Below are positions 1,881-22,799 of a stretch of 24,797 bases of DNA, one piece after another. The stretch covers positions 1 to 24,797 of the IMG/VR virus record IMGVR_UViG_3300017649_000001. One strand, 5' to 3'. The translations under genes and the position numbers were made by a program. Position 1 is the first letter of the stretch; each line of letters opens with the position of its first letter. A model generated the notes under the pieces. That model was given only the letters and a program-made list of their open reading frames with translations, did no database searches and was not told the origin of the DNA. Source of the stretch: a virus. Its lineage: Duplodnaviria; Heunggongvirae; Uroviricota; Caudoviricetes.

Positions 1881-1920
1881 TTGCGTGATGCTAACTAATT
1901 AGTTATTTAGTTAGCATCAC
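1881..1920 (+). promoter_or_regulatory. Putative phoH promoter overlapping an operator and a 14-bp inverted repeat (may also terminate the tail operon)
   Basis: TTGCGT(1881)-17-TATTTA(1904). TAACTAA-ttag-TTATTTA at 1892-1909. Arms GTGATGCTAACTAA 1885-1898 and TTAGTTAGCATCAC 1907-1920. Confidence 0.6.
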
Positions 1921-3574: not shown

Positions 3575-3592
3575 TAACTAATTCGTTAGTTA
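3575..3592. promoter_or_regulatory. Operator palindrome (perfect copy)
   Basis: TAACTAA-ttcg-TTAGTTA, ending 17 bp upstream of the helicase ATG. Confidence 0.75.
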
Positions 3593-3609: not shown

Positions 3610-4950
3610 ATGAGTGATCTGGCCGAGGACGAGCTGGTCGACGAAACCAAATATGATTTTGACGAGGGATTTCAGAACAGTTTGGTAGCGCACTATCTGC
3701 GGGATAATAATTTCGCACTGCGCTCCAACGAAGTAATTGACCCTAAGTATTTCACGAACGCGGCCACCGGACAGGTCGTCGGCATTTTCAAAGATTACAT
3801 CGGAACACATAAGAGCGTTCCGCCATCTTCACTGGTTCGCTCGCTCCTTGAAGACGCTATAGCGAAGAAGCGCATTAAGGCTGAGGATAAGGCCGAAGTC
3901 GTCAAGATCGTCCAGACTGCCTACAAGGCACCGCTGTCAGGTGGCACATACATTCTCGGTAAGGTTGGTGAGTTCGCCAAGAATCGCGCTCTTGAAGCCG
4001 CGATCATGAAATCTGTCGAGTATCTCGACAAGGGAGACTACAAGGCGATCGCCGATATAATGGCGAAAGCGCAACGTGTCGGCGAACTCGAAGAGACCGA
4101 CGATTACGATTATTATGCCGACGTCGAGGCGCGAACTGCGGTTCGCAAGGCAATCGCGTCCGGCACTCTCACCAGAAATGGGATCACAACCGGCTATTCC
4201 GAGCTTGATGCGCACCTCTATCATTATGGATGGGGGCGCAAGGAACTCTCCTGCATCATGGGGCCGTCAAAGTCGGGCAAATCTCTATCGCTTGGTGACT
4301 TCGCGAAGAATGCCTCACTGGCCGGTCATAATACGCTCTACGTTTCGCTCGAAGTTGCGAAAGAGATTATCGCTGATCGTATCGACGCCGCGCTCTCAGA
4401 CACGCTGATCCGCGATCTCCACATAAACGCTGACGTAGTTGAAGCCTCCATCAAGGCGGCGCAGGCGAAGGCCGCTGCGTTTAAGATGCGCGACTTCGCA
4501 TCCAATTCAATGAAGCCGTCTCGTCTGTTCCGGCTAATCGAAGATTATAAGGCCGAGGGCATCATCCTCGACCTCGTTGCGCTCGACTACGCGGACATTA
4601 TGGCTGCTGAATATCGCTCGGACAGCCTTCAGGAAAACCTGCGTTCGATTTACCTCGATCTTCGTTCTATCGCTCACGAATTTAACCTCGCGATGCTGAC
4701 TGCTACGCAGACGAACCGTGATGGCGCCAAGGAAATGACTTCGAAGGCGACGAACATCGGTGACGACTGGAATAAGACAAGAACGGTCGACATTCTGATC
4801 GGTATTAACGCTACCGAAGCTGAGAAGAAGATCGGTGAGGCGCGTCTGCATTGGGTCATGTCCCGTAACACTGCTGACGGCTTCTCCATCCGCATCAAAC
4901 AGGACAGAAGCAAGATGCAGTTTCTGACCAAGGTTCTCGGGATAATCTGA
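3610..4950 (+). CDS. dnaB: Replicative DNA helicase (DnaB/T4 gp41-like)
   Basis: Walker A GPSKSGKS, YVSLE, Walker B LDYAD, and TATQTNR; RBS AGGAG. Confidence 0.93.
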   Translation: MSDLAEDELVDETKYDFDEGFQNSLVAHYLRDNNFALRSNEVIDPKYFTNAATGQVVGIFKDYIGTHKSVPPSSLVRSLLEDAIAKKRIKAEDKAEVVKIVQTAYKAPLSGGTYILGKVGEFAKNRALEAAIMKSVEYLDKGDYKAIADIMAKAQRVGELEETDDYDYYADVEARTAVRKAIASGTLTRNGITTGYSELDAHLYHYGWGRKELSCIMGPSKSGKSLSLGDFAKNASLAGHNTLYVSLEVAKEIIADRIDAALSDTLIRDLHINADVVEASIKAAQAKAAAFKMRDFASNSMKPSRLFRLIEDYKAEGIILDLVALDYADIMAAEYRSDSLQENLRSIYLDLRSIAHEFNLAMLTATQTNRDGAKEMTSKATNIGDDWNKTRTVDILIGINATEAEKKIGEARLHWVMSRNTADGFSIRIKQDRSKMQFLTKVLGII

Positions 4951-6032
4951 TGAGTGATATTTTTCAGCGCATCCAGTCAGAGCTTGATTTCGGATACTTT
5001 CTCGATAGCGAAGGACTGGATTACAAGGAAGTTCAGGGGTCGAGCGGCGAGCAATTTCATATAAAATGCTGTCCGACATGCGGTGACTCCCGCTGGCGCA
5101 CTTATATGGGCGTCGAGTCCGGTCTAGGGAACTGCTTCAAATGCGGTGAGAAATACACCAAGATCACCTTTCTCAAAGCGCATTTTGGCTATGACAATTG
5201 GGGGGAGACTTTTCGCAAATGCGAGGAAGTTCTCCACGATCAAGGCTGGCGACCGGTTCGAAAATCGGTCGTCGTGGAGCCAAATATATCGGAAATTCGT
5301 CTGCCGATCTCGGATCCAATTCCATTCGCAAACGGAGCCAACTTTCCTTATCTTGAGGAGCGCGGCGTCACGAAGGAGCTTGCGGCCTACTTTCATCTCC
5401 GGTTCTGCAAGTTTGGCGGATGGGTGTTCAAGTCGTCTGAAGGAAAACAGCAACTCCAAAATTTCAGCGACCGCATCATTATCCCGATCTTTGACCTCGA
5501 CAGAGAGTTGAAGACATTTCAGGGGCGCGACGTTTCAGGCAACTCTGATCGAAAATATCTGTTTCCGGTTCAACTCCCTGGAACTGGCCGATATCTCTAT
5601 AACGGCCAGAATGTTGTCGCCTGCGAGCATGTTGTGATGGGCGAGGGCGCTTTTGACGTGATTGCCATCAAGGCAGCGCTCGACCTCGATCCTGCAACCA
5701 GGAACGTGGTTGCGATCGGCTCATTCGGCAAGCACCTGTCGCACGGTCACAAAACCAATGACGATCAACTCTCCCGATTGTCCACGCTAAAGGCACAAGG
5801 TTTGAAGCGCGTGACGATTATGTGGGACGGAGAACCGGCAGCATTAACCGCAGCGCTTGATGCAGCCAAGCTGATCCGGTCAGTCGGATTGATGCCGCTC
5901 ATTGCCCTTCTACCGTCAGGCAAAGATCCAAACGAAGTGCCGGCCGAGGAAGTTATCAAAGCGTTTTACGCAGCCAAAGAGTGGAATCTCTCCACAGACG
6001 TGAAATGGCGCTTGCGAAATCCATACGCGTAA
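4950..6032 (+). CDS. DNA primase (Zn finger + TOPRIM)
   Basis: CPTC...CFKC zinc finger, IIIPIFD, RYLYN, TOPRIM motifs EGAFD and WDGE, and KDPNE. TGATG overlap with the helicase. Confidence 0.92.
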   Translation: MSDIFQRIQSELDFGYFLDSEGLDYKEVQGSSGEQFHIKCCPTCGDSRWRTYMGVESGLGNCFKCGEKYTKITFLKAHFGYDNWGETFRKCEEVLHDQGWRPVRKSVVVEPNISEIRLPISDPIPFANGANFPYLEERGVTKELAAYFHLRFCKFGGWVFKSSEGKQQLQNFSDRIIIPIFDLDRELKTFQGRDVSGNSDRKYLFPVQLPGTGRYLYNGQNVVACEHVVMGEGAFDVIAIKAALDLDPATRNVVAIGSFGKHLSHGHKTNDDQLSRLSTLKAQGLKRVTIMWDGEPAALTAALDAAKLIRSVGLMPLIALLPSGKDPNEVPAEEVIKAFYAAKEWNLSTDVKWRLRNPYA

Positions 6033-6097: not shown

Positions 6098-6760
6098 ATG
6101 TCAGATAAAGCAACAGCAATAACAGACGGCAGATCAATGACAGCTAATCGCTACACGGTTAAGGTGACGCGAACACCTTTGACGAATGGCAAACGCACGT
6201 TTGTCTCTTTTGTCGCTGTGGGTTGGAATGGCGCAGCGCTTTTCTTTTCGAGCGCGCCCAATGAAGACGCCTACGGATTAGAAAAGGACGACAAGGAGTA
6301 TCACGCCTGGCTTCCCATCCAGAAGAATGAATCCGGCGTCCAGGCGATCATCGCTGGCAGCAATCTCAATTACAATCGCCGTTCATGGGAATCGAGCCAA
6401 ATGTTCGATGACGATGTGGTGAATTTCTTCAAGGAAATTAAGAAGGTTGGCTACACCGATATCAAGCGCGATTTGGTTCAGCACATCGTCGGCCCAGGGC
6501 TAGACGAGGAGCGGTATTTGGAGCTGCGCGTAAACGCGGCACTGTCTGATGCTGGTAAGCACTTTAGGGCACAAATCAGAGATATCGACTCGCGAAATCC
6601 AGTTTTCGTCAATTTTAAAAGCAGCCTTGATCGTGATCATGCCGCTTATAAGAAGATAGCTGAACGTCGGCGCGCGGAAGCTGAGGAAATTCAAGCCCTG
6701 GAAGCGCTAATCACTAACCAGGTGTTTGCACAGACACACGAAGGTTTTGGAGCGTTCTGA
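6098..6760 (+). CDS. Hypothetical protein, C-terminal FGAF motif (#1)
   Basis: Open frame 6068-6760; ATG at 6098 is preferred over GTG at 6068. Ends ...QTHEGFGAF*. Confidence 0.75.
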   Translation: MSDKATAITDGRSMTANRYTVKVTRTPLTNGKRTFVSFVAVGWNGAALFFSSAPNEDAYGLEKDDKEYHAWLPIQKNESGVQAIIAGSNLNYNRRSWESSQMFDDDVVNFFKEIKKVGYTDIKRDLVQHIVGPGLDEERYLELRVNAALSDAGKHFRAQIRDIDSRNPVFVNFKSSLDRDHAAYKKIAERRRAEAEEIQALEALITNQVFAQTHEGFGAF

Positions 6761-7566
6761 TGAATGAGGTTGATGATTTCGGCCGCAGCGATATCAAGAT
6801 TTTCGCAAATCTTGTCGCCAGCGAACTTACCGACGCGGCGACGCGTAAGAACCCCTTCCTCGATCCTCGCACTGACGGATATCTAAGTAAATCGGTCGCG
6901 GAGTATTTGGGTAGGCTGTACGATAATGGTCTGGCGAGTGCAGATGGCTGGCTGTTTGATACGATGGAGAACTTCGCCGCCATCTACAGATGCGGCTCGA
7001 ACGCAGTTCTGTTTCAAGTTTATATTGCGCCAGATAATGGCGTTTTCGCCTGTATGACGCGATGGATCAGATACGCCGGCCAGTCTTTGAATTTCTTTAA
7101 TTTGGAGAGTCGGGCTGTCTTTCTCAATCCTGAAAATCTCTTAAACCAGGCGATTATATGCGAGGAAAATGTTTCCGCGCCGATGTTCTTTAGTGGCCGC
7201 GTTGGACGGCTCCTGCCTTACATGGATGTGACCTACGAGCGGGATGCATATAAATACTGGCGTCCTCGCAAAAGTGAAAAGGATAAGCGGGCTGGCGGGT
7301 TTGAACCATTCCATCAAATGCTCAGCGGACTTAATCTGGCGGCCGCACTGACCTCTGAGGCTGGTCGAAAGTTCGCCTCATATTACGCCAGCGACAAAGG
7401 TTCAGATACCGGCTCGGGCGATATGTGGGAGGTCGCTCACGCCATTCGCGATTTTCGCTCCAGAGCGGATACGAACGACGATCTTGGCGTCAGTGTCGAA
7501 GGTTATATCAAGCCAAAAATCGATCAGAAGTTCTACGCGGAGCTTCCCGGCTTTGGCGCTTTCTAA
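6760..7566 (+). CDS. Hypothetical protein, C-terminal FGAF motif (#2)
   Basis: 268 aa, TGATG overlap with the previous gene. Ends ...YAELPGFGAF*. Confidence 0.8.
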   Translation: MNEVDDFGRSDIKIFANLVASELTDAATRKNPFLDPRTDGYLSKSVAEYLGRLYDNGLASADGWLFDTMENFAAIYRCGSNAVLFQVYIAPDNGVFACMTRWIRYAGQSLNFFNLESRAVFLNPENLLNQAIICEENVSAPMFFSGRVGRLLPYMDVTYERDAYKYWRPRKSEKDKRAGGFEPFHQMLSGLNLAAALTSEAGRKFASYYASDKGSDTGSGDMWEVAHAIRDFRSRADTNDDLGVSVEGYIKPKIDQKFYAELPGFGAF

Positions 7567-7577
7567 GCGAGGATAGA

Positions 7578-8432
7578 ATGAACAACTGCATCAAAAGCTC
7601 CGTCAATGTTAAGAAGATTCAGTTCTCTCTTTACGGTAGGCCGTTCGGAGCTTTCCATTATGAGCGCTTCGATGACTATTCGTTTCGGGAAGCATTCGTC
7701 CAAGATTTCATAGCGAATCCGGAGGCGGCGCTTGGCTATCGTCACTTTGTCAAAACCATCAAAGACACAAAAGAGAAAACCTCTTTTGGTGCTCTGCAAT
7801 TGATCTATATCCTACCAACGCTACCTGACCCACTCAAAAATCAGTGCGTTCAAACCTTCAATGCGATAATTCCCACCGTTTTCGATGAAGAAATAAACGG
7901 TTGGCGTGTCGGTTATCATTATGAAGAAACTGAGAAGGGCGGCTCGGGATCTGGCATAGCTATTGATAATGTTACATGGGCGAACATGATGGGTCCTGAT
8001 ATCAATCATTATCCCGTTGACGAAGCTTTTCGCCGATATCGTAATCGACTTCGCCGTTATGTGAACAATATTTTTATGGGTTACGCACCTTCGCTTATTG
8101 AGCGAAACTGGTTACCAACCCAATCACGGGCAACATTCTTCTACGGCCACGATGAAAAGAACTACAAAGGTCTTTTCAACAGCAATGCAAGTCTGGCTCT
8201 CGACGGTCTTAATTTATTGCTCGCACTCCAGCATCATGGCGATTTTGGAAAGACAGCGCTCGGAAAAGTGCTCAGCAAGAGCGCTTATAATTTTCGTCCT
8301 ACGGTACATGCTTATCGGAATCGTCGTTCATCGTATGAAATAAAACAAGGCATGATCAACGTACTCGACGATGAAGAAATCCAAAAAGTAGTAGAATACT
8401 ACGCCGACAATCCTCTTTTTGGTGCCTTCTAA
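7578..8432 (+). CDS. Hypothetical protein, C-terminal FGAF motif (#3)
   Basis: ATG at 7578 follows a GAGGA RBS; the 7425 start would overlap the previous gene by 142 nt. Ends ...YADNPLFGAF*. Confidence 0.8.
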   Translation: MNNCIKSSVNVKKIQFSLYGRPFGAFHYERFDDYSFREAFVQDFIANPEAALGYRHFVKTIKDTKEKTSFGALQLIYILPTLPDPLKNQCVQTFNAIIPTVFDEEINGWRVGYHYEETEKGGSGSGIAIDNVTWANMMGPDINHYPVDEAFRRYRNRLRRYVNNIFMGYAPSLIERNWLPTQSRATFFYGHDEKNYKGLFNSNASLALDGLNLLLALQHHGDFGKTALGKVLSKSAYNFRPTVHAYRNRRSSYEIKQGMINVLDDEEIQKVVEYYADNPLFGAF

Positions 8433-8526: not shown

Positions 8527-9096
8527 ATGACCTATTATTTGTCGTTGGATAATGACCCCAAGAATAACAAGTTTCAGTTCGTTTGCCCAATCTTCGAAAC
8601 GAAGGTTCACATGGCGCACTGTGTTCATCTTCGCAACATCGTTTGGTGCGGCGGTCGAAGCGAAATCAGGCGCGGCTGCCAGGCGTGCATGTTGTCGGGT
8701 AAATGTCCGGCCTCTGAAATCGTGCGCAAGATAAGTTTTCATAAGGATACGCCAGACGACTACGGCAGTGCTACTCCCGTCCTTGGCAAGATTCGCCGAG
8801 ACGTTCTTGAGAAAGTCGCTCCAGTCATCGTTCAGGAAAAACACATGCAGGAGCTGCGTGTTTCCGAAGCGGAAAGGGCGCTCATCATGACCGCGTCCGA
8901 ACGAATACGAAAACTCATTCCTTCAGCTCCTGAGCCAAGTAACGCAGCGCCGAACTATTCCCGGCGCGCGCCAACCAGTTCTGACCGCGCTCCTCGTTCG
9001 ACACGTAGGCAGGCAGCGCCGAAACCAACATCAACTGTCAATAACGCGGCGCGCACCGGTGACATGTCGGCCGCCATCAATATGGAGGCATCATAA
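8527..9096 (+). CDS. Cys-rich hypothetical protein (probable Zn-binding N-domain, disordered basic/Pro-rich tail)
   Basis: CP...C...C...CQAC...CP pattern; TAATG overlap with the ligase. Confidence 0.75.
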   Translation: MTYYLSLDNDPKNNKFQFVCPIFETKVHMAHCVHLRNIVWCGGRSEIRRGCQACMLSGKCPASEIVRKISFHKDTPDDYGSATPVLGKIRRDVLEKVAPVIVQEKHMQELRVSEAERALIMTASERIRKLIPSAPEPSNAAPNYSRRAPTSSDRAPRSTRRQAAPKPTSTVNNAARTGDMSAAINMEAS

Positions 9097-10601
9097 TGCG
9101 CGGAGTAGTTTCAGCTTCGGATCGAATGAAGGCAGAAGAATACAAGGTTGCTCGTCTCCTTGAGAATATTCGCGACACGCCTTCTCTGAGAGAAAAGAAG
9201 GAAATGGTGGAGGAGCTGCTCGACCTGGAGCTTGGCGCGTTTGTTCTCAAATGGGCGCTCGATCCCGACTACACGTTCGGGATTTCGCCAGAGCGCATCG
9301 TTGGCGGCGGCCGTCTTTCACTTACGCCAAGTCGAACCATGGGGCTTCTGTCTGATCTGGTTCAGCGCAAGCTCAGCGGAAACGCAGCCATCGCTCAGAT
9401 GCGAGATTATATGCAGATGCTTTCACCTGATGGATCGGAGCTGCTATTTCTCATTCTGTCCAAGAATTTACGCTGCGGTTTCGGCACGCGAATGGTCAAC
9501 GAGATCCGACCCGGCTTCATCAACACCTTTGAGGTCATGCGCGCTCAGAAATACGAGGAAAAGCGCGTTGCTGGCTGGAAAAACATCGTCGGTGAGCCAA
9601 AGCTCGACGGTAATCGAAATACGTTTCTATGTTCAAACGGGCAGGGTGCATTCTACACGCGTTCTGGCGAGATTGTTCGGGCGCTCGATTTTGCGGTTGC
9701 TCCAATAATGAAGGTGGCAAAGCTGATCGCCGAGCAGGATCCCGAGTTCTATATTCGCACGGTTGATGGCGAGAAGGGACTTTATTTCGCGCTTGATGGC
9801 GAGGCGATGATGGGTTTGTTCGGTGACACCGGAAAGCTTCGTCGCAAAAACGAGCAGGCGAAAAACGCGGAGCTGCATCTTTACGATATCATTCGCTATT
9901 CGGACTGGACGGGCGAAAGCGCAAAACCGATGACGCTGAAGGAGCGTCGTGAGAAACTAGCAGCCTTCTGCCGTGTTGCCAGGGTACTTCTGAAAGGCGA
10001 GTTCGAAAATCTCGTTCAAATTGTCCCTCAGACGCCGCTCACCGACGTGGCCGAGATTGAGGATTATTATAATACTTGTGTCACAACTCCGCTTGGTTCG
10101 TATCTGGCACGTGGTGATCTCGATCAGGAAATTGAATTGACCATTGCGCTCACAGACGAGCAAACTGGGCTTCCAAAGAACCTTGAAGGAGCGATGATCA
10201 AGAATCTCGACGCGCCGTATGAGCGCAAGAAGTCTTACAATTGGCTCAAGATGAAGCCGAAAGAGACAGAGGATCTTCAGATCACCGGTGCTTTCCCAGG
10301 CGAGCCGCATAAAAAGTACGAGAACACGCTCGGTGGTGTTCTGGTAGATCGTCAGGGCGTTGAATGTCGCATCGTCGGCTTCTCGGACGAAATGCGCGAT
10401 GAACTGTGGGCGCTCTATCAGCAGGATCTCGAAGCAATCGCCGATCATGGCATCGAGGACCTATCCGACTTCAGCGGCAAGCTGATCGGGCGGCTGATTG
10501 AGGTCAAGTTCCAGGAGGTGACACCAGATGGCTCACTTCGTCACGCAAATTTCGTGCGCTTCCGGGACGACAAAGCTGAAGAGGTTCGCGAAGCAGCCTA
10601 G
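9096..10601 (+). CDS. lig: ATP-dependent DNA ligase
   Basis: Motif I EPKLDGNR, then LDGE, LYD, EGAMIK, WLKMKP, and a C-terminal OB fold (IEVKFQEVTPDGSLRHANFVRFRDDK). Confidence 0.93.
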   Translation: MRGVVSASDRMKAEEYKVARLLENIRDTPSLREKKEMVEELLDLELGAFVLKWALDPDYTFGISPERIVGGGRLSLTPSRTMGLLSDLVQRKLSGNAAIAQMRDYMQMLSPDGSELLFLILSKNLRCGFGTRMVNEIRPGFINTFEVMRAQKYEEKRVAGWKNIVGEPKLDGNRNTFLCSNGQGAFYTRSGEIVRALDFAVAPIMKVAKLIAEQDPEFYIRTVDGEKGLYFALDGEAMMGLFGDTGKLRRKNEQAKNAELHLYDIIRYSDWTGESAKPMTLKERREKLAAFCRVARVLLKGEFENLVQIVPQTPLTDVAEIEDYYNTCVTTPLGSYLARGDLDQEIELTIALTDEQTGLPKNLEGAMIKNLDAPYERKKSYNWLKMKPKETEDLQITGAFPGEPHKKYENTLGGVLVDRQGVECRIVGFSDEMRDELWALYQQDLEAIADHGIEDLSDFSGKLIGRLIEVKFQEVTPDGSLRHANFVRFRDDKAEEVREAA

Positions 10602-10602
10602 T

Positions 10603-11685
10603 TCATGGCGTCTCCTTTAGCTTTCGCAGCAGAAGGCGGCGCATTTCAAACGCCAGGTCAAACTTGCCGGACTTAATCATCCGGCACACTGACCGGAAAT
10701 AGCCGCCAAAATTCGCGATCGGTTGTGATCCTACAGCCGGTCGCGCCTGCATTTGCATCACGTATAGGAATGCGGCCGCCGCGGACGACCCGCCGATACT
10801 GTCACGCGCTTCCTCCCAGGCATCATTACTCACGCCAAACGCGCCGCGCAGCTTCACCACCCCGCTAACCAGGTGCTGTTCAGTCCGCACTTCCTCAAAA
10901 TACTCCATCGCGTCCGGGCACGCCGCCGTCAGATCGCTAATTCGCAGCGCCGCCGCTTGGCTTTCTTCGGAAGCCCCCTTACAAAAATTGGAATCTTTGT
11001 TGTTATCTATATGACGGCAATTATTGCCGCCAGAGGCGGATTTATATCTCTCTTCGGCATCAATACGGAGCTGGCGCCATTCCTCGATAAACGGTTCAGG
11101 AGAGGCGAGTGACCCGCGGCGAGGAAGTCTACCCATCAAAGCGACGAAGCGCTCCATTAGGTCCTCGGCGTCGATCTCAGCCAGAATGCCGCGAACCGTG
11201 CGTCGTTCCATCGTCAGCTCGTCAAATTTGGCCGATCGCTCCCGCTTGGCCGTCTCGATCAGATAAGATAACTTATGGAACTCGGACTGACGTGCCATTA
11301 ATGGCCCGAGATCAAAACCGAAGGCTTTAATTATTTTACCGTCACGGCTTCTCTGAGCGAACCTTTTGCCATTTGCCGAGTCCTTGGCATTAATAAGCCC
11401 AAGATCAATGAGCTGGCGCAGCGCATATCGAATAGATCGCTCAGAAATTCCGGAATTTTCGCATAAATATTCATTGGAAGGCCAAACGAGAATTTTGCCT
11501 TCAATCATTTCATTGCCATAAACAGCGCAAAGCTGTGTCAGCACATGACGCACCGAGCTTGTGAGTTGCAGAGCCTTACCGGCCAGCGTTGCTGCCTGGA
11601 GCAGTTCGCTTCGGGTGACAGGTTGCAACTCCTCGTGCGTAACAGCAGGCGCATAGCTCCGCTGCCCGAACACGCGGGTTCCCAT
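10603..11685 (-). CDS. repC: Plasmid replication initiator RepC (repABC/repC family)
   Basis: N-domain VWPSNEYL...GISERSIRYALRQLIDLGLI..KDSANGKRF...AFGFDLGPL and C-domain ACPD...GVSNDAWEEA...FGGYFRS match RepC. RBS GGAG precedes the ATG. Confidence 0.92.
   Translation of the reverse strand: MGTRVFGQRSYAPAVTHEELQPVTRSELLQAATLAGKALQLTSSVRHVLTQLCAVYGNEMIEGKILVWPSNEYLCENSGISERSIRYALRQLIDLGLINAKDSANGKRFAQRSRDGKIIKAFGFDLGPLMARQSEFHKLSYLIETAKRERSAKFDELTMERRTVRGILAEIDAEDLMERFVALMGRLPRRGSLASPEPFIEEWRQLRIDAEERYKSASGGNNCRHIDNNKDSNFCKGASEESQAAALRISDLTAACPDAMEYFEEVRTEQHLVSGVVKLRGAFGVSNDAWEEARDSIGGSSAAAAFLYVMQMQARPAVGSQPIANFGGYFRSVCRMIKSGKFDLAFEMRRLLLRKLKETP
10960..11060. other. Candidate oriV inside repC
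   Basis: AT-rich patch with a GANTC site in the region encoding the interdomain linker. In characterised repABC replicons the origin lies within repC. Boundaries are approximate. Confidence 0.35.
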
Positions 11686-13204: not shown

Positions 13205-15280
13205 ATGTCCAATTCTGTAATGCAGATTGCACAGCTCAAGGAAGTCATCCAGAAGCTTGTGCCACTTATCGCCGGCAAGGGACTTGAGGTTACTCAACGC
13301 GGCTCCAAAGCATACGTTAAGACCCATCCTGTCACCGGCAAGCCTGTCTCGGTGAATATTCCGAATATCTCCGATAATGCGTCGCCCGATTTCGTGCGCG
13401 CTATTCAGGGCTTCATCGATCACGAAGTGGCTCACGTTCTCTTCACCGATTTCGATATCTACACCTCGGCAGGCGCAGATCAGTTGAAGCTTTCACCGAA
13501 GCAGCGCCGCTTCACCGAGATCCACAATATCGTTGAAGACACCATGATCGAACGTGAAATGGTGAAAATGTTTGAAGGATCGGCTCGCAATCTCTCCGAT
13601 CTCGGAACGCACTTCATCGAGAAGGTGACCAAGCCGGCGATCGCCAAGGCCGGCTCACCGGAAGAGGAATTTCAGTACCTGTTCGTTCCGATGACGCGAG
13701 CGCTAGCCGGTCAGAAGGTTTTTCAGAATTTCATGGACGACGGCGGCTACTGGAAACACCCTGTGGTCGAAGACGTGATGAGCAAGCTGTCTACCGAGAG
13801 CAAGCAGTTTCTGGCGAAGGCCCGCTCCACAAAAGAGACCCACAAGGTCGCCAAGGAGTTCGAGAAAATCTTCTTCGGCGACGATGAAGATGATGAAGAC
13901 GAAGAGGATGGCGATGACGGTCAGCCGTCGCGCAGCCAGGACAAGCCCGACAAAAAGGCGGGTGCTGGAAACGGAACTGGCAAGCGTGACCATTCAGAGA
14001 GCAAGCCTGGTGAAGAAGGCGACGACGAGGGTGAAGGCACGTCCGGCTCAGGCAGCTCAGGTGGCGAAGGAGATGAATCCGAGGCGGAAAGTGAAGGTGA
14101 CGAAGGTGGTAGCGACGGCTCCGCGGGTTCAGGTGGCAAGCCGAAAGGTAAGATGAGTGACGAGGTCGGTGATGGCAACGGCGAAGATGTTACCACGGAC
14201 GGCGCAACTGGCGGCGGCAACGGCGAGTTCATGTCCGAGGAAGACCCGCAGTCAGGTGGCGGCGGCGTCGGTAATGGTTCCGTGAAAAAGTCCATCTTCG
14301 AGTTCGAAGATGATGCGTTCAAGGAAGCAGACGTCTCCTCAAAACTCTGCATCGAGATTGAGGAAGAAGCCGTCGATATCATGAAGGCGGCCGACTATAA
14401 CGTTTACACGACGGAGTTTGATCGTATCGAGCCACTGCTGGTTCCAGAAAACATCAATCCAAAATGGATTCCTGAGATGGAAGAAGCGACCTCGCTTCTA
14501 TGCGGCAGAATGCAAAAGGATATCGAACGTCTGATGGCGGCTCAGTCCGTTGTAACGCGTGTGCCAGGCTATCGTCGTGGTCGTTTGCATATGGCTTCGC
14601 TTCATCGCGTGGTTCAGGGTGATGATCGCGTCTTCACGCAGAAAGTGGAAAACCGCTCCAAGGATACGGCAGTTTCGCTTCTCATCGACAACTCCGGTTC
14701 AATGCATGGTGAGAAAATGCGTGTAGCGATGCTGGCCGGTTACGCTCTTTCCCGCACGCTTGAACGCGTTAAGATTACCCATGAAGTGATCGGCTTCACA
14801 ACGGGAAGTTGGGGCGATCTTCCACAAGACGTCCTGAAGGCAATGTATGATGAGGCGCGCAATAGCGGGATTTCATATGATCGCGATTGTACGCTGGCGA
14901 TGCCAATCTACAAAGACTTCAACGAGCGGGTTGATTCCACTGTCAAGACACGCATCGCTTACGCCATGAACGCACAGCGCGGCCTGTCAGGCAATATTGA
15001 CGGCGAATCCCTGCGCGTAGCAGCCAATCGTCTTCATACGCGATCTGAAAAGCGAAAGGTGATGTTGGTTCTGTCAGATGGCCAGCCCGCAGGATCGCAC
15101 CGCGCCGCCCCTCACCTGAAGCAAACGGTTCAGGATCTGAAGAAAGAGGGTATCGAGTGTGTTGGGATCGGCATTCTCACTGACGCGGTGAAGAAATTCT
15201 ACCCAAATCACGTGGTGCTTCGCAACGTTAACGAGCTTCCAGGCGAAGTGATGGGTCAGCTCAAGGCAATCCTTCAGTAA
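13205..15280 (+). CDS. CobT-like vWA-domain protein (MoxR partner) with HExxH N-domain and acidic linker
   Basis: IDHEVAHVLFT and NIVED in the N-domain; D/E/G/S-rich linker at about 13870-14330; vWA MIDAS LIDNSGSM and VLSDGQP. Confidence 0.88.
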   Translation: MSNSVMQIAQLKEVIQKLVPLIAGKGLEVTQRGSKAYVKTHPVTGKPVSVNIPNISDNASPDFVRAIQGFIDHEVAHVLFTDFDIYTSAGADQLKLSPKQRRFTEIHNIVEDTMIEREMVKMFEGSARNLSDLGTHFIEKVTKPAIAKAGSPEEEFQYLFVPMTRALAGQKVFQNFMDDGGYWKHPVVEDVMSKLSTESKQFLAKARSTKETHKVAKEFEKIFFGDDEDDEDEEDGDDGQPSRSQDKPDKKAGAGNGTGKRDHSESKPGEEGDDEGEGTSGSGSSGGEGDESEAESEGDEGGSDGSAGSGGKPKGKMSDEVGDGNGEDVTTDGATGGGNGEFMSEEDPQSGGGGVGNGSVKKSIFEFEDDAFKEADVSSKLCIEIEEEAVDIMKAADYNVYTTEFDRIEPLLVPENINPKWIPEMEEATSLLCGRMQKDIERLMAAQSVVTRVPGYRRGRLHMASLHRVVQGDDRVFTQKVENRSKDTAVSLLIDNSGSMHGEKMRVAMLAGYALSRTLERVKITHEVIGFTTGSWGDLPQDVLKAMYDEARNSGISYDRDCTLAMPIYKDFNERVDSTVKTRIAYAMNAQRGLSGNIDGESLRVAANRLHTRSEKRKVMLVLSDGQPAGSHRAAPHLKQTVQDLKKEGIECVGIGILTDAVKKFYPNHVVLRNVNELPGEVMGQLKAILQ

Positions 15281-15404: not shown

Positions 15405-16685
15405 ATGACCGCGCTTCAGAACGAAACAGCCACGCCTACCGCCAACGACAAAATCAAATGCCTTGTCGACGGACAGATGGTTCACTCCATTCAGAACCAT
15501 ATCGAGAAGAACCTTCCTGAATGGACCATCCAGCGCTATCAGGAAGCATATCCGGACACGCCGTTGTTCTCGCCTTATGGTGAAATGATCAAACAGCGTG
15601 CTCTCAAGAATGCCGAGGACCAGCGCAAGCAGCGTGAGGAGAAGGAGCGCCAGGTGGCGGATGCTGCACCAGCGCCCGTTGCCGGAACGTCGAATAACGT
15701 TGTGGTGGGTAACTTCGGTGGCAAGCAGGCCGAGCTGATCTCAAAAGTTGGCGCGATGCACGAACTTTTCGATCTTGGCGCCGTACCAGCAGCCATGGGT
15801 TCGAAGGGGCAGCCAATTGCGGTGCACTATTATGAAGGTCACACGGACCTCAATTCGCTCTATCTGCCGGCGACCGACGCTGCATATGTCTTCAACATCG
15901 ACCTCCTGAAGAAAGTCATTCTGGCGCTTCAGTTGAATTTCCCGATGCTGCTCTGGGGTAAACACGGCACTGGTAAGACGACCATCGTCGCCCAGGCATC
16001 TGCTCGAACGGGCCGTCCTGTTATGCGTGTCCAGCACACGATGAACATGCAGGAGTCTGACGTTATCGGTCAGTGGACTGTGAAGAACAGCGAAACGGTG
16101 TTCGAGCTTGGACCGCTTCCGACCGCCATGCTGAACGGTTGGGTTTACATCGCCGACGAATATGACTTCGCAATGCCTGCCGTGACAGCGCTCTACCAGC
16201 CGGTTCTCGAAGGTGAAGCTTTGATCATCAAGGACGCGCCAGCGCATCTTCGCAAGATCGTTCCGCACGAGAACTTCCGCTTCTTCGCTACCGGCAACAC
16301 GAACGGCACCGGCGACGAAACTGGTCTCTATCAAGGCACGACCATGCAGAACGCCGCCAACTACTCGCGCTTCAAGATCACCGAAGAGGTCGAGTACATG
16401 GACGCGAAGATCGAGGAAGCCATCATTTCTGCCAAGACTGGCGTCGACAAGACGGTTTCGCGCAATCTCGTGAAGTTCGCCAATCAGGTTCGTTCATCGT
16501 TCACTGAAGGCAAAATTTCTTCCACGATCTCTCCACGTGAGCTGATCTCGGCTGCTCAGATCGGCTTCGCGTTCGGTGGAAAGTGGGCTGTCGGTTTGCA
16601 GCTCGCGTTTTCCAATCGCTTGTCGTCGGTCGACAAATCGGCCTGCGAGCAGTTCATGAACCGAGTGTTTAAGGACGGCGAATAA
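15405..16685 (+). CDS. CobS-like MoxR AAA+ ATPase
   Basis: Walker A GKHGTGKT, Walker B IADEYD, FRFFATGNT, and C-terminal ISPRELI. Confidence 0.9.
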   Translation: MTALQNETATPTANDKIKCLVDGQMVHSIQNHIEKNLPEWTIQRYQEAYPDTPLFSPYGEMIKQRALKNAEDQRKQREEKERQVADAAPAPVAGTSNNVVVGNFGGKQAELISKVGAMHELFDLGAVPAAMGSKGQPIAVHYYEGHTDLNSLYLPATDAAYVFNIDLLKKVILALQLNFPMLLWGKHGTGKTTIVAQASARTGRPVMRVQHTMNMQESDVIGQWTVKNSETVFELGPLPTAMLNGWVYIADEYDFAMPAVTALYQPVLEGEALIIKDAPAHLRKIVPHENFRFFATGNTNGTGDETGLYQGTTMQNAANYSRFKITEEVEYMDAKIEEAIISAKTGVDKTVSRNLVKFANQVRSSFTEGKISSTISPRELISAAQIGFAFGGKWAVGLQLAFSNRLSSVDKSACEQFMNRVFKDGE

Positions 16686-17838: not shown

Positions 17839-20800
17839 ATGAATACCGCCCTCGCCTGCCGTTCTGATTTCTCCCTTGGTGAGTCCATTTTGACCACCGA
17901 TTATATCGTGCGTGACGCGAAAGCTGCCGGGCAGACTGCCGTGGCGCTTACTGACACAATGAGCGTTACCGCAATGACGAACTTTTTCGGTGCCGCGAAA
18001 AAGGATGGGCTGAAGGCGATCATTGGAACGCGTCTACGTTTAACAGACAATCCAACCTGGCGGCCTGGCAAGGACCAGAAGAAAAAGGATATGCCGCGTA
18101 CTTACTGCGCGATCCTTTATGCGCGTACTGAGGCGGGTCTAAAGGTGATCTATCGCCTTCTGTCACTCGCTAATTCAGAAGCACGGTTCTACTACGAGTC
18201 CAAGCTTGGCTTCGACGATCTGTATAAGGAGCTGGACGCCGCGGGTAATGACGATCTGGCGATCGTGTATGGCGATACACATAGCATTCTGGAACACCCT
18301 GAGTTCGATAAGATCGCTTCGCGGTTAAAGACGACTGGTGTTTCTGAGATTTTTGCGCCGTTCGTTCCGGTAAACACCCCGTATTTCGCTCGATTGTCAG
18401 AGTTGGCTGCTAATGCGTGCCGTGACGGCTATGCGAAGCCGCTTGTTATTCGACCAGCGCTCTATGAGCGCGATGCTGCGGATTATAAAGAAATCATCAC
18501 GGCTGCGATCGGCAATCAGAAGATTACTGATCCTTGGTTTCGCTCTGCCTACAATCGCGACTTTCATATCATGCAAAAGCCGGAACTGACGGCCGAGCTG
18601 GTGAAAACTGGCAAGATGTTGCAGACGCTTGGTAAGGATGAAGCGTTGAAGCAGATGCGCGCAGGCATCGCCAATACTGAAACCTTTCCCGATCTGTTCA
18701 CGTATGAATGGAGCAAATCCGGCGTCACTCTGCCAAAGCTAGTTCCCAACGAGTTCGCAAAAGTAGTCGAGGAATGCAAGCTTGGCTGGACACGTCGGTT
18801 CATGTCACCGGTTTTTGGTCATATGCCGGATATGACTGAACTGAGCACGGTTTACATGCCGCGTTTGAAATACGAGCTGGAAGTTCTCCAAAAGCTCGAC
18901 TTCTCTGGCTACTTTCTGCTCGTCCAGGATATCGTTCGACATGCAAAGGATTCAGGTATTCTTGTAGGTCCAGGTCGAGGCTCCGTCGGCGGCTCCCTTG
19001 TCGCTTATCTTATGGGCATCACTGAATGCGATCCAATCAGGTTCGGCCTTCTGTTCGAACGCTTCATCAATCCGGAGCGTATCGACTTGCCTGACGCCGA
19101 TCTCGACTTCATGTCCGAGCGCCGTCACGAGATTTTCGAATATCTGTATGCCAAATATGGCGAGGAATACACTGCCGGTGTCTCAAACTACGGCACACTC
19201 GGCGGCGCATCTGCAATTCGCGACGTATCGAAGGCAATGGGTATCCCGGAGCGCGAGTATTCGATCTCCAAGATGGTGCCGAAAGAGCACGGTCAGCCAG
19301 TCGCTCTTCAGAAGGCTCGTGAGAGTGTGCCCGAGATTGACGACTACGCTACCAAATACGAGGCAGTGTGGTCAGTTATCGAGCGCGCCGAAGACAACAT
19401 GCGATCTTATGGTCAGCACGCAGCCGGTGTCGTTGTAGCCGGTGAGCCGCTTGTAAATCGTGCGGTTCTGGAGCGTCGCGCAAACGGTCAGGTTGTCTGT
19501 TGGGACAAGCGCATCGTTGAAGATCAGGGATTGGTAAAGGTTGATATTCTTGGCCTGAAAACACTCGATCTAATCGATCTGGCGCTGACCTATATTCGCG
19601 AGCGATACACAAGCGTCCCGGATCTTCATCAAATCCCGCTTGATGATGAGAAAGTGCTCGCCAATTTTGCTGAAGGTAACTCTGTTGCTGTGTTCCAGTT
19701 CGAAAGCCCTGGAATGAGAAAGTTGCTGCGCGAAGTCGGTGCAGGTGGCGATATCACATTTGAAGACGTCTCTGCCTGCACCGCACTTTATCGACCTGGC
19801 CCGATGGAGTCAGGTATGATGGACAGCTTCTACTTGCGCAAACAGGGTAAAGAGCCAGTTTCTTATGATCACGCCCTTATGGAAGACGTTCTGAAGGAAA
19901 CATTCGGCGTTATCACCTATCAGGAACAGGTCATGCGTATCTCTCAGGTGATCGCAGGCTATTCCGGCGCCGAAGCAGACAAACTGCGCAAGATCATGGG
20001 CAAAAAACAGCCTGACGAAATGGCAAAGCAGAAGGATAAGTTCATAGAAGGCTGCGTCAACACAATCGGCGCAACTGAGACGTGGGCTGGCTCGCTGTTT
20101 GAAAAGATCGCAGGTTTCGCGGGCTACGGTTTCAATAAAAGCCATAGTATCGAGTACACGCTGATCTCCTATCAGTCGATGTACCTCAAGACCTATTATC
20201 CTGCAGAGTTCTATGCGGCAGCCTTGTCGATCCTTGATGACGACAAACTTAACGCCATCGTTAGAGACGCCAAGCGAGCGGGTATCGACATTTCTGTGCC
20301 CGATATCAATATCTCCACCAACCGGTTCGAGATTGCGACCAGCGCTCGCCTTGTAACACCTTTCAATCGTATCAAAGGAATTTCGTCACGTACCGGCGAT
20401 GCAATATTGGCGGCGCGCGCAGCAGGTCCGTTTAAAGACAAGGCTGATTTTTTGGCGCGTGTCGAGCGACAGAAGTGCAATGTAAAGCACCAAAAGCTTC
20501 TCGATGACGTTGGTGCGTTCTCGCGCATTGAGTTAAGTCAACCCCCAGCGGACGATCCCACCCGTATTCTGTCGCAGATCGAGCTTCTGCCGGGCCTTGT
20601 TATCAGCACGGTCCCGGTCAATCGCGACCTCGATGCATCGAAGCTATCGCGTGAAATGGTTTCTGACGTGATCAACGCCTGCAGAACGGCTTATGGTCCG
20701 ACGGCACCTGTGCCAGATGGTGTTATCGTATCGCCGAGGTTCGGTAAGGACGCGCGTTTTGTTGTCGTGATGGATGCGCCAAGCAAAGATGAGGAAGATG

Positions 20801-21207: not shown

Positions 21208-21891
21208 TTGCGCATATTTGGTGGAGACTGCAATCCGGGTAGTCCAAGAATTATAGATATTGAGAACCGGATCGAAACCATCATCGCCGGCTCCAAAATT
21301 CTTCGTCAGTCGCGTGAATTTGTTCACCCTGCGTTGGCTATGGAACTCAGGCTTATGCTTGAGAGCTTGGAAAACGGCTTGGCGTCTTATAGATATCTCG
21401 CCAATCTCTTGCTCAGATACTCGCTCTATAATCTCGCGGACACGACGCATAGAGTTTTGGCGACGAAAATCGCCACCTTGTCGCACATAATCACCAGTCT
21501 TTTGGGTACAGGTAAGGTCTACGCTCAACCTGTTCGTGAGATCAGAGCTTCATTTAAGGAAGTTCACGCTCTAATGGAGCTGACTGCTTACCTTAATGAA
21601 GCTCTCAACGTGAAGAAAACCGACGGGGACACTCATAAAATCAATGGCGCTGAAATAACGCTGCGCGGTTTCAAGAGCACGATTGCCGAAAATGCAGACA
21701 GTACATTTTCGGCAATCGTATCTACGGATGAATTTGTTCTGTCCGAGGGGCTTTTTACAGTAGCTCCGATATTATCAACGTTCGAACATTTCGACTTGGA
21801 ATCGGGTTATTTCCCGTTCCCCACTCCAGCCGAAGCTATAATTAAAATCGAAATGACACATGAAACACTCCCTGGTTTCGGTGCGTTCTGA
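21208..21891 (+). CDS. Hypothetical protein, C-terminal FGAF motif (#4)
   Basis: TTG start after AGGAG, which overlaps the dnaE stop. Ends ...HETLPGFGAF*. Confidence 0.7.
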   Translation: MRIFGGDCNPGSPRIIDIENRIETIIAGSKILRQSREFVHPALAMELRLMLESLENGLASYRYLANLLLRYSLYNLADTTHRVLATKIATLSHIITSLLGTGKVYAQPVREIRASFKEVHALMELTAYLNEALNVKKTDGDTHKINGAEITLRGFKSTIAENADSTFSAIVSTDEFVLSEGLFTVAPILSTFEHFDLESGYFPFPTPAEAIIKIEMTHETLPGFGAF

Positions 21892-22765: not shown

Positions 22766-22799
22766 AGTCACTAGATAACTACCTAGTTAAGTAGTGACT
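22766..22799. promoter_or_regulatory. Degenerate operator / nested palindromes upstream of the SSB gene
   Basis: AGTCACTA...TAGTGACT arms enclose TAACTA-cc-TAGTTA (22776-22789). Confidence 0.5.

What the first reader, a model, noticed from the sequence alone, without database searches (positions are those of the whole stretch)
6098..8432. Three tandem, otherwise dissimilar orphan proteins all end in -FGAF*: a shared C-terminal tag
Seen: the termini are QVFAQTHEGFGAF*, QKFYAELPGFGAF* and VEYYADNPLFGAF*, each preceded by a helix-like segment. The DNA differs at synonymous positions (TTT GGA GCG TTC TGA; TTT GGC GCT TTC TAA; TTT GGT GCC TTC TAA), so the conservation is at peptide level and is not a DNA repeat or recombination site. 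I see no other similarity between the proteins, and none has a signal peptide. The genes form an operator-controlled cluster placed between primase and ligase. Inference: a C-terminal addressing or docking signal for a family of variable accessory effectors. Options are capsid loading and co-ejection (compare the T4 internal-protein targeting sequence and P1 Dar cargo), a common scaffold or host-protein pocket, a protease degron, or recognition by the element's own MoxR/vWA chaperone. I know of no described function for this motif.
Basis: partly seen in the sequence, partly recalled or inferred. Interest (0 to 1): 0.92.

Follow-up and report, generated by a model that had tools for sequence, protein, structure and literature searches.

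The report
Shared C-terminal docking tail on phage proteins
Seven unrelated early proteins of this 112-kb Rhizobium-type phage-plasmid end in the same four residues, which are the local version of a tail (aromatic-Gly-x-aromatic at the very end) found across a large family of phage-plasmids; it changes in step on all tagged proteins of a genome, so it looks like an address label read by one partner, which I could not identify.

Summary
Four proteins in the window and seven in the 112,228-bp genome end in [FY]GAF-COOH. Their bodies show no similarity, and the tail codons differ at synonymous sites.

The tail is the local form of a family-wide motif, N-P-x-[FYW]-G-x-[FW]-COOH.
- 145 of the 150 best cluster representatives of the post-primase WGR family carry it.
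- So do about 38 unrelated protein families in 12 complete genomes.
- So do homologues of the post-primase gene of Salmonella phage SSU5, which occur on 758 enterobacterial plasmids; SSU5 and the three plasmids read end in W-[GA]-[ST]-W.

Unrelated proteins of one genome carry the same tail version, and versions differ between genomes (0 of 2000 shuffles reach the observed agreement). In the WGR family the tail follows a variable charged linker and a helix.

This fits a short C-terminal docking motif read by one shared partner. The partner is not identified. The tail does not fit the motifs of the beta clamp, the SSB tip, ssrA or HbYX. A covariation scan of about 40 core proteins singled out only the phage UvsW-type helicase. 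That is a weak lead.

A degron, or a host reader, cannot be excluded. No binding was shown.

This scan has noted analogous shared tails in other phages on other DNA, with different motifs.

The parts
6098..6760 (+). F1, orphan protein (220 aa from ATG 6098; another possible start is ATG 6137). Tail ...THEGFGAF; the FGAF codons are 6746-6757.
   Evidence: no Pfam or PHROG hit; ESM Atlas gave no usable hit
6760..7566 (+). F2, orphan protein (268 aa). Tail ...ELPGFGAF; the FGAF codons are 7552-7563. Its start overlaps the F1 stop by 1 nt.
   Evidence: no Pfam or PHROG hit; hhalign to the WGR family aligns only the last 13 residues
7578..8432 (+). F3, orphan protein (284 aa, ATG 7578 behind GAGGA). 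Tail ...YYADNPLFGAF; the FGAF codons are 8418-8429.
   Evidence: only itself among 5.8e9 proteins; hhalign aligns only the last 19 residues
21208..21891 (+). F4, orphan protein inserted between DnaE and the UvsY-like gene (start uncertain: TTG 21208 or ATG 21340). Tail ...ETLPGFGAF; the FGAF codons are 21877-21888.
   Evidence: no tail-bearing ORF within 10 kb of DnaE in eight close relatives
8527..9096 (+). Conserved four-Cys protein (Pfam DUF8312 in relatives). Family-wide it sits directly between the tail-bearing gene(s) and the ligase. It has its own conserved C-terminal helix motif, TGDMSAAIN. It is a candidate partner; no link to the tail was found.
4950..6032 (+). DnaG-type primase. It marks the position of the ancestral tail-bearing gene, which lies immediately downstream in most of the 73 related loci.
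9096..10601 (+). ATP-dependent DNA ligase, the downstream border of the cluster.
13205..15280 (+). CobT-like protein: N-terminal HEVAH zincin motif (residue 73), acidic linker, vWA domain with MIDAS DNSGS. Considered as reader; no covariation with tail type.
15405..16685 (+). CobS/MoxR-type AAA+ ATPase. Considered as reader; no covariation with tail type.

Best explanation
FGAF-COOH is this phage's version of an old, family-wide C-terminal short linear motif with consensus N-P-x-[FYW]-G-x-[FW]-COOH. In the WGR family, the one family modelled, it sits at the end of a variable charged linker and a helix. Inferred mechanism: the last aromatic side chain with its free carboxylate, together with the aromatic residue three positions before it, plugs into a pocket of one common reader protein. 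A changing set of otherwise unrelated early and DNA-metabolism accessory proteins is thereby tethered to, or handed to, the same machine. In relatives this set includes a WGR nick/gap-sensor-like protein after the primase, a protein after Rad50, and lineage-specific orphans such as F1-F4 here. Because all tails must fit one pocket, they change together within a genome. Shown: the motif, its retention, its spread over unrelated proteins, its concerted variation, and the linker-helix-tail architecture in the WGR family. Inferred: that it binds a protein, and that there is a single reader.
For: (1) Enrichment. Seven of seven matches lie in long + strand ORFs in the main coding direction, among 1,481 six-frame ORFs. 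Codons differ at synonymous sites and the stop codons differ.
(2) Unrelated bodies. BLASTP E >= 0.64; hhalign aligns only the tail; 59 tail proteins of 12 genomes fall into 38 homology clusters.
(3) Retention. 145 of the 150 best 50%-identity cluster representatives of the WGR+tail family (1,607 hits) end in Ar-[GA]-x-[FWI](G). Position -2 is G in 133 of 134, -5 is P in 102, and -6 is N in 92. Homologues of the post-primase gene of phage SSU5 occur on 758 enterobacterial plasmids; the three tails read are WATW, WGSW and WGSW.
(4) Positional orthologues change tail with the genome. The post-Rad50 family carries FGAF, WGSW, WGMF, WGIF, YGSW, FGSW and FGIF.
(5) Concerted variation. G000 has 7x[FY]GAF, G001 4xWG[SA]W, G003 7xWG[VILM]F, G007 3x[LQ]GSW, phage RHph_Y2_11 5xGRF, L072 2xGLI. 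Non-homologous proteins of the same genome share residue -3 in 63% of pairs against 30% between genomes, residue -1 in 45% against 14%, and the last residue in 81% against 50%. None of 2000 shuffles reaches these values.
(6) Architecture. The WGR alignment shows a length-variable E/A/K/R linker before the tail. The AF2 model has a domain at pLDDT 92-98, a linker at 63-81, helix 178-195, and then the tail.
(7) UvsW lead. Among about 40 orthogroups, only UvsW has an excess of columns separating genomes with W-ended tails from F-only genomes: 14 against 2-6 for five control partitions. The sites are Y348/[IV], M354-[HL]355/R-N, Q442/[IA] and [CISV]478/D (Y476/F holds in all but G012), and two further genomes fit the other four sites.
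(8) Precedent. [quoted passage not shown] The window phage's helicase model matches XPB, T4 UvsW 2oca and RadD.
Against: No physical interaction has been shown for any tail. Concerted change would also be produced by a host-encoded reader after a host shift, or by a protease that reads the tail as a degron. Two genomes carry mixed tails: G004 has 2 W-ended and 2 F-ended, and G008 about 5 W-ended and 3 F-ended. The fit is therefore not strict. The UvsW signal rests on essentially one within-clade contrast (G001/G004 against G003/G005) plus deep phylogeny, and could reflect a recombinant UvsW allele. Its covarying sites lie in the second RecA-like domain region, not where RadD binds the SSB tip (RD1, PMC10238739). 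Ligase and DUF8312 could not be included in the covariation scan.
Confidence: 0.7

Rival explanations
1. The tail is a C-terminal degron. A host AAA+ protease (Lon, ClpXP or ClpAP), or the phage's own MoxR ATPase with its zincin-vWA partner (CobS/CobT-like), recognises the aromatic end. This keeps early accessory proteins short-lived, which would suit a phage that also lives as a plasmid.
For: The position at the very C-terminus and the need for a free end are typical of degrons. The motif sits mainly on early, variable and possibly toxic accessory genes. The element encodes a CobS-type AAA+ ATPase and a CobT-like protein with an HEVAH zincin motif and a vWA MIDAS, a pair proposed to act as chaperone and peptidase in phages (PMC7824862). 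Concerted change would also follow from one protease reader.
Against: The motif matches no described bacterial degron class that I compared by sequence (ssrA-like LAA-COOH). The two ancestral bearers are conserved core replication and recombination accessories that have kept the tail across alpha- and gammaproteobacterial hosts. CobS and the CobT-like protein show no covariation with tail type: 4 and 10 columns against 2-8 and 8-16 in the controls.
Confidence: 0.13
2. The reader is a conserved host protein (for example a replisome or repair hub), and the tail versions track host taxa rather than a phage protein.
For: The tail is kept from Rhizobiales to Enterobacterales elements. Enterobacterial elements have W..W tails and the Rhizobium-phage crown group has F/Y..F tails. 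The polymerase is a DnaE type that should depend on the host clamp and clamp loader, and no clamp gene is annotated in RHph_Y2_11 or in the 100 kb of SSU5 that I read.
Against: The tail does not fit the beta-clamp motif Q-phi-x-[LM]-(x)-[FL], for which a terminal Trp weakens binding (PMC11139829). Nor does it fit the acidic SSB tip. Host hub pockets of this kind are very conserved, whereas tails differ between close relatives of the same clade (G001 WGSW against G003 WGLF/WGMF). The hosts of those metagenomic genomes are unknown, so this is not decisive.
Confidence: 0.15
3. The tail is a packaging address that loads cargo proteins into the capsid for co-ejection (compare T4 internal proteins, P1 Dar and encapsulin cargo peptides).
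For: Encapsulin cargo-loading peptides are short C-terminal tags on unrelated cargo (general knowledge). Many bearers are small orphans that could be anti-defence proteins.
Against: All bearers lie in replication, recombination or early modules, and none in the structural module. One ancestral bearer has a WGR domain, a predicted nucleic-acid-binding fold. Portal and major capsid protein show no covariation with tail type: 3 and 1 columns against 2-6 and 2-5 in the controls. The T4 targeting sequence is N-terminal and cleaved (general knowledge).
Confidence: 0.03
4. The similarity is only inheritance: diverged paralogues, or a DNA cassette (a 3' gene end with a regulatory site) spread by recombination.
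For: The three genes are tandem. F1's tail codons hold a GGAG 9-12 nt before the F2 start.
Against: BLASTP and hhalign find no body similarity. Codons differ at synonymous sites, Gly is GGA, GGC or GGT, and the stops are TGA, TAA and TAG. Only F1 is followed directly by an overlapping start. The motif is kept at peptide level in 145 of 150 diverged representatives.
Confidence: 0.02

Closest known systems
Phage T4 sliding-clamp (gp45) binding C-termini of gp43, gp33 and gp55
   Same: Unrelated proteins of one phage end in a similar short hydrophobic or aromatic tail that docks on one hub (review PMC2988020, listed; the details are from general knowledge).
   Different: No clamp gene is annotated in RHph_Y2_11 or in the 100 kb of SSU5 that I read. 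The motif is different (Ar-G-x-Ar-COOH after N-P).
Bacterial SSB C-terminal tip (DDDIPF-COOH) and its many pocket-bearing partners (RadD, RecG, PriA, RecQ, ExoI, chi)
   Same: A disordered linker ends in a terminal Phe, whose side chain and alpha-carboxylate enter a hydrophobic pocket with a basic rim (PMC10238739). The proteins involved are DNA-metabolism proteins.
   Different: The topology is inverted: many proteins carry the tail and presumably one reads it. There is no acidic run, Gly is nearly invariant at -2, and there is a second aromatic at -3. The phage's own SSB-like protein does not carry the tail.
T4 UvsW helicase binding the C-terminal tail of gp32
   Same: A UvsW-type SF2 helicase reads a C-terminal tail of another phage replication or recombination protein (PMC10391720). 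This phage has a UvsW/XPB/RadD-like helicase, and it is the only core protein that covaries with tail type.
   Different: The gp32 tail is acidic. Here the link to UvsW is only a covariation lead.
Beta-clamp binding motif Q-phi-x-[LM]-(x)-[FL]
   Same: A short, often C-terminal hydrophobic motif, with the terminal carboxylate contacting an Arg of the pocket (PMC11139829).
   Different: There is no Gln. The two hydrophobic positions are two residues apart, not adjacent or one apart. Trp, which weakens clamp binding, is common at the end.
MoxR AAA+ / vWA client recognition (CobS-CobT, CbbQ-CbbO, NorQ-NorD) and the phage MoxR + metallopeptidase-vWA pair
   Same: The element encodes such a pair. 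A vWA MIDAS could in principle bind a carboxylate. The pair's clients in phages are unknown (PMC7824862; bioRxiv 10.64898/2026.10.09.757910).
   Different: No covariation of CobS or the CobT-like protein with tail type. No described client motif resembles this tail.

Membership tests
Short linear motif (SLiM) / C-terminal docking tag | Short (under about 10 residues), conserved relative to its flanks, and located in a disordered or linker region | tested here: met
   WGR-family alignment: a variable-length charged linker, then a conserved N-P-x-Ar-G-x-Ar end. In the AF2 model the linker has pLDDT 63-81 and the domain 92-98.
Short linear motif (SLiM) / C-terminal docking tag | Occurs on unrelated proteins (independent acquisition) | tested here: met
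   59 bearers fall into 38 homology clusters. F1-F3 align with each other or with the WGR profile only at the tail.
Short linear motif (SLiM) / C-terminal docking tag | Binds a defined partner domain | not testable with these tools
The one structure-prediction job gave no answer (see Tried and rejected).
Beta-clamp binding motif | Q-phi-x-[LM]-[FL] or Q-phi-x-[LM]-x-[FL] | tested here: not met
   The tail consensus N-P-x-[WFY]-G-x-[FW] was compared with the consensus in PMC11139829.
SSB-Ct-like acidic tip / T7-type acidic tails | A run of Asp/Glu followed by a terminal (Pro-)Phe | tested here: not met
   No acidic run in the last 8 positions; G at -2 in 133 of 134. Only the terminal aromatic residue is shared.
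ssrA-type C-terminal degron | ssrA: ...LAA-COOH | tested here: not met
   The tail ends in Ar-G-x-Ar. The ssrA pattern is from general knowledge.
HbYX proteasome-activator tail | Hydrophobic-Tyr-X at the C-terminus | tested here: not met
   The penultimate residue is variable (M, R, L, A, S, I) and never Tyr. The HbYX pattern is from general knowledge.
WGR-domain protein (the ancestral post-primase tail bearer) | Pfam WGR domain (PF05406) | tested here: not met
   Met for relatives: RHph_Y2_11 EVC19_073 at E 7.8e-16, and P0270 and P0258. Not met for F1-F3 of this window: no Pfam hit, and hhalign probability 0.3-12% on the tail only. No ORF of the window phage's genome matches the family HMM at E <= 0.01.
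Capsid cargo-targeting peptide (T4 CTS, encapsulin CLP) | Bearers are virion or cargo proteins encoded with or near structural genes. The T4 CTS is N-terminal and cleaved. | tested here: not met
   Bearers lie in replication, recombination or early modules. Virion content is not testable here.

The most novel reading that the evidence does not exclude
The tail is the handle of an inverted SSB-tip network. One phage protein, with the UvsW/RadD-type helicase as best lead, carries a pocket that reads Ar-G-x-Ar-COOH. A nick or gap sensor (WGR protein), a Rad50-associated factor and a freely exchangeable set of orphan proteins can each recruit or steer that machine. The pocket and all tails co-evolve as one specificity code. 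This code would be shared by hundreds of SSU5/pHCM2-type phage-plasmids of Klebsiella, E. coli, Salmonella and Yersinia and by their Rhizobiales relatives.
Probability: 0.2. Interest if true: 0.8.

Novelty: new variant of a known kind. Interest (0 to 1): 0.62.

Why it matters
Shared docking tails organise the replisomes of T4 and T7 and the bacterial SSB network. This is a distinct motif with an unknown reader. It is conserved from Rhizobium phage-plasmids to the SSU5-type plasmids that are common in enterobacteria: homologues of the post-primase tail-bearing gene lie on 758 PLSDB plasmids, and the three tails read all carry the motif.

The tail gives a direct experimental handle. A 10-15-residue peptide can be used to fish out the hub of an otherwise unstudied replication and recombination system. 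It also gives a simple rule for picking out which of the many 'hypothetical' early genes belong to that system.

The genome-specific tail versions offer a natural specificity-swap experiment.

Tried and rejected
- Complex prediction. The job held the phage's UvsW (alignment A2), the DUF8312 N-domain (A3, residues 1-125) and the last 40 residues of F5. The score was 0.00, verdict 'no answer'. It is neither support nor evidence against.
- Family and homologue searches. Pfam and PHROGs found nothing for F1-F4 and the other bearers, apart from WGR in the relative and sub-threshold hits (Ku_N on F5, IQ_SCN5A_C on EVC19_074). ESM Atlas look-alikes for DUF8312 and F1 were uninformative, with low-confidence models. 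The homologue search for F3 returned only itself.
- Locus searches. The single-sequence DnaE scan of viral contigs found nothing. The two-sequence alignment gave only 10 loci. None of them has a tail gene near DnaE, so F4 is lineage-specific.
- Covariation of the terminal residue (F or W) with locus proteins. There are 0 discriminating columns in primase, helicase and the 240-aa protein. There is 1 of 1,144 in the CobT-like protein. In DUF8312 10 columns discriminate (for example G87/R and R126/x), but only two W lineages are involved, and G004 does not follow.
- Genome-wide scan. The simple count is dominated by evolutionary rate. It was therefore redone with control partitions, and only UvsW stands out. 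Contigs of further F/W sister lineages (G002, G011, G013-G017) do not contain UvsW, so the lead could not be tested on independent transitions.
- RadD comparison. Its SSB pocket lies on RD1, whereas the covarying UvsW sites lie in the RD2 region. There is no positional match.
- Sequence-level alternatives rejected: the beta-clamp motif, the SSB tip, ssrA, HbYX and PDZ-type patterns. A ribosome-binding-site explanation for the Gly codon is also rejected, because it could hold only for F1 to F2.
- One call was a mistyped reference.
Full report
THE ELEMENT
The window is the first 24.8 kb of a 112,228-bp virus record. Its helicase and primase genes are about 66% identical at the DNA level to those of the 115-122-kb Rhizobium phages RHEph10, B1VFA, V1VFA-S, RHph_X66 and RHph_Y2_11. 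The gene order in the window is as follows:
- tail fibre
- PhoH
- a 240-aa protein
- DnaB-type helicase
- DnaG-type primase
- F1, F2, F3
- a four-Cys protein
- ATP-dependent ligase
- RepC (minus strand)
- a regulator
- a CobT-like protein
- a CobS/MoxR-type ATPase
- a sigma-70-like factor
- a 174-aa protein
- DnaE with a UDG-like C-terminal domain
- F4
- a UvsY-like protein
- an SSB-like protein
- a 5'-3' exonuclease

The rest of the genome holds T4-like recombination genes: UvsX/RecA, Mre11, Rad50 and a UvsW-type helicase. Earlier notes of this scan describe the genome as a phage-plasmid with relatives in Salmonella and Acinetobacter. I confirmed the kinship to Salmonella phage SSU5 by tblastn.

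THE OBSERVATION
- The third gene starts at ATG 7578, behind a GAGGA.
- A fourth FGAF protein follows DnaE.
- The whole genome has seven ORFs ending in [FY]GAF. These are the only matches to [FYW]G.[FYW]$ among 1,481 six-frame ORFs of 40 aa or more, and all are long + strand ORFs in the main coding direction.
- Without their last 12 residues the seven proteins show no pairwise similarity (best E 0.64).
- They have no Pfam or PHROG family above threshold.
- F3 has no relative at all among 5.8 billion proteins.
- The tail codons differ at synonymous positions, and the stop codons are TGA, TAA and TAG. The conservation is therefore at the peptide level.

THE MOTIF IS FAMILY-WIDE
In RHph_Y2_11 and B1VFA the genes between primase and ligase end in ...NPRFGMF...QNFGRF and ...NDLYGRF. 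RHph_Y2_11 has six such proteins genome-wide.

I fetched 73 IMG/VR loci around primase homologues. In most of them the gene or genes just downstream of the primase end in aromatic-Gly-x-aromatic: FGRF, FGMF, YGRF, FGLF, FGAF, WGMF, WGLF, WGSW, WGTW, WGAW and FGAW. Variants are [LQ]GSW, WGIWG and GLI.

SSU5 itself has ...GWATW after the primase and ...TWATW after Rad50. Homologues of the SSU5 post-primase gene lie on 758 PLSDB plasmids: Klebsiella 313, Escherichia 219, Enterobacter 91, Salmonella 49, Yersinia 43. Three of them, at 27-51% identity, end in GWATW, SWGSW and GWGSW.

The commonest bearer is a WGR-domain protein of about 175 aa (Pfam E 7.8e-16). A profile of this family finds 1,607 cluster representatives. 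Of the best 150, 145 end in Ar-[GA]-x-[FWI](G)-COOH. The position counts are N at -6 (92), P at -5 (102), W/F/Y at -3 (134 of 134), G at -2 (133 of 134) and F/W at the end (132 of 134).

The second test, 'diverged paralogues', fails too: the WGR-family HMM and hhalign align F1-F3 only over the last 13-19 residues.

ARCHITECTURE
In the WGR family the tail follows a length-variable, E/A/K/R-rich linker. The AlphaFold2 model of one member shows a confident globular domain (pLDDT 92-98), a low-confidence linker (63-81), a helix (178-195) and then the unstructured terminal motif. This is the usual build of a short linear docking motif.

CONCERTED VARIATION
I fetched nine further complete genomes and listed all tails.

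| Genome | Tails |
|---|---|
| G000 (this phage) | 7x [FY]GAF |
| G009 | YGRF and five FG[AG]F |
| G010 | FGIF, YGMF, FGMF, FGIF |
| RHph_Y2_11 | five GRF and one GMF |
| G003 | 7x WG[VILM]F |
| G005 | 4x WG[ISM]F |
| G001 | 4x WG[SA]W |
| G006 | YGSW, WGSW, WGSW |
| G007 | 3x [LQ]GSW |
| SSU5 | 2x WATW |
| G004 | mixed |
| G008 | mixed |

The 59 bearers fall into 38 homology clusters. Only one within-genome pair is homologous. The table compares non-homologous pairs taken from the same genome with pairs taken from different genomes.

| Tail position | Same residue, same genome | Same residue, different genomes |
|---|---|---|
| -3 | 63% | 30% |
| -1 | 45% | 14% |
| last | 81% | 50% |

None of 2000 shuffles reaches any of the same-genome values. 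The shuffles ignore the relatedness of the genomes, so the count is not a probability. Positional orthologues, such as the post-Rad50 family to which F5 belongs, carry whichever version their genome uses.

Unrelated proteins that change the same few terminal residues together point to one shared constraint, that is, a common reader.

WHO READS IT: KNOWN MOTIFS
By sequence, the tail does not fit any of these:
- the beta-clamp motif Q-phi-x-[LM]-(x)-[FL], for which a terminal Trp weakens binding (PMC11139829);
- the acidic SSB tip (PMC10238739);
- ssrA-, HbYX- or PDZ-type ends (general knowledge).

No clamp gene is annotated in RHph_Y2_11 or in the 100 kb of SSU5 that I read.

WHO READS IT: COVARIATION
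I looked for covariation between the terminal residue (F or W) and conserved proteins. In the 73 loci, primase, helicase and the 240-aa protein have no discriminating column, and the CobT-like protein has one.

With whole genomes, simple counts follow evolutionary rate. I therefore compared the true partition with all other ways of splitting the four intermediate genomes. In the true partition G001 and G004 group with the W-type deep clade, and G003 and G005 group with the F-type crown. Genome-wide the true partition is not favoured (116 columns against 104-178 for the others). The UvsW-type helicase, however, has 14 such columns against 2-6 for the controls. No other of about 40 orthogroups shows an excess, including CobS, the CobT-like protein, DnaE, the SSB-like protein, UvsX, Mre11, Rad50, portal and capsid.

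| UvsW site | Six F-only genomes | Genomes with W-ended tails |
|---|---|---|
| 348 | Y | I or V |
| 354-355 | M-[HL] | R-N |
| 442 | Q | I or A |
| 476 | Y | F |
| 478 | C, I, S or V | D |

The W-ended group includes two further partial genomes and the two mixed genomes. The one exception is that G012 keeps Y at 476.

The helicase model is confident (pLDDT 87.8) and matches XPB, T4 UvsW and RadD. There is precedent for such helicases reading C-terminal tails. T4 UvsW needs the tail of gp32 (PMC10391720). [quoted passage not shown]

The signal rests on few independent switches and could reflect a recombinant allele. I treat it as a lead with about 20% probability.

THE NEIGHBOURS
The four-Cys protein (Pfam DUF8312 in relatives) always lies between the tail gene or genes and the ligase. 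Its start often overlaps the stop of the preceding gene. It has recognisable relatives in the deep clades too. It carries its own conserved C-terminal helix motif. It is a reasonable second candidate, but I found no evidence linking it to the tail.

The CobT-like protein has an HEVAH zincin motif, an acidic linker and a vWA MIDAS. This is the phage 'MoxR plus metallopeptidase-vWA' pair of PMC7824862, whose clients are unknown. It does not covary with the tail.

VERDICT
The finding is a real, strongly conserved and co-evolving C-terminal tag. The best reading is a docking motif for one shared reader (confidence 0.7). Capsid targeting and shared ancestry are unlikely.

The principle is known from T4, T7 and SSB. 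This scan has also noted analogous shared tails in other phages. The motif, its breadth across phage-plasmids and the unknown reader make it a new variant of a known kind.

Noticed in passing
window 13205-15280: The 'CobT' protein carries an N-terminal HEVAH zincin motif (residue 73), a roughly 150-residue acidic, Gly-rich linker and a vWA domain with MIDAS DNSGS. With the CobS-like ATPase next to it, this is the phage MoxR + metallopeptidase-vWA pair, probably not a vitamin B12 gene.
   Followed up: partly
window 8527-9096: A four-Cys protein (C20, C32, C51, C60; DUF8312 in relatives) is conserved family-wide between the tail genes and the ligase. It has a disordered middle and its own conserved C-terminal motif, TGDMSAAIN (GLSLLEIANRF or GESPLAMARRL in distant relatives). 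This may be a second docking motif.
   Followed up: partly
window 17839-21198: DnaE-type polymerase whose C-terminal 150 residues match the UDG superfamily (PF03167, residues 969-1102) instead of the usual OB and tau-binding end.
   Followed up: no
window 21901-22416: The small protein between F4 and the SSB-like gene is UvsY-like by ESM Atlas features and structure (clusters in which 17-32% of members carry UvsY). This fits a T4-like UvsX/UvsY/UvsW/Mre11/Rad50 set.
   Followed up: partly
window 7641-7652: F3 also contains an internal FGAF near its N-terminus (...YGRPFGAFHYERF...). It may be chance.
   Followed up: no
L004 36185-37147 and 38847-39095 (phage RHph_Y2_11): The RNR beta subunit and the glutaredoxin of the relative end in acidic-Phe tails (...TADDEF, ...SEDDDF). 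This is a second, different tail class in the same family.
   Followed up: no
proteins P0052, P0054, P0066, P0083, P0095, P0109 (UvsW homologues): Several UvsW homologues are about 875 aa long and carry homing-endonuclease and intein domains (PF05204, PF05203, PF14528). These are intein-containing alleles of the helicase.
   Followed up: no
window 1892-1905, 3575-3592, 22776-22789: Exact copies of the genome's palindromic operator TAACTA-N(2-6)-TAGTTA (0 expected by chance) lie before PhoH, the helicase and the SSB-like gene. None lies directly before F1.
   Followed up: partly
window 10603-11685 (minus strand): A RepC-type plasmid initiator (RP-C N- and C-terminal domains) lies inside the phage replication module. 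It is conserved in the Rhizobium-phage relatives.
   Followed up: no
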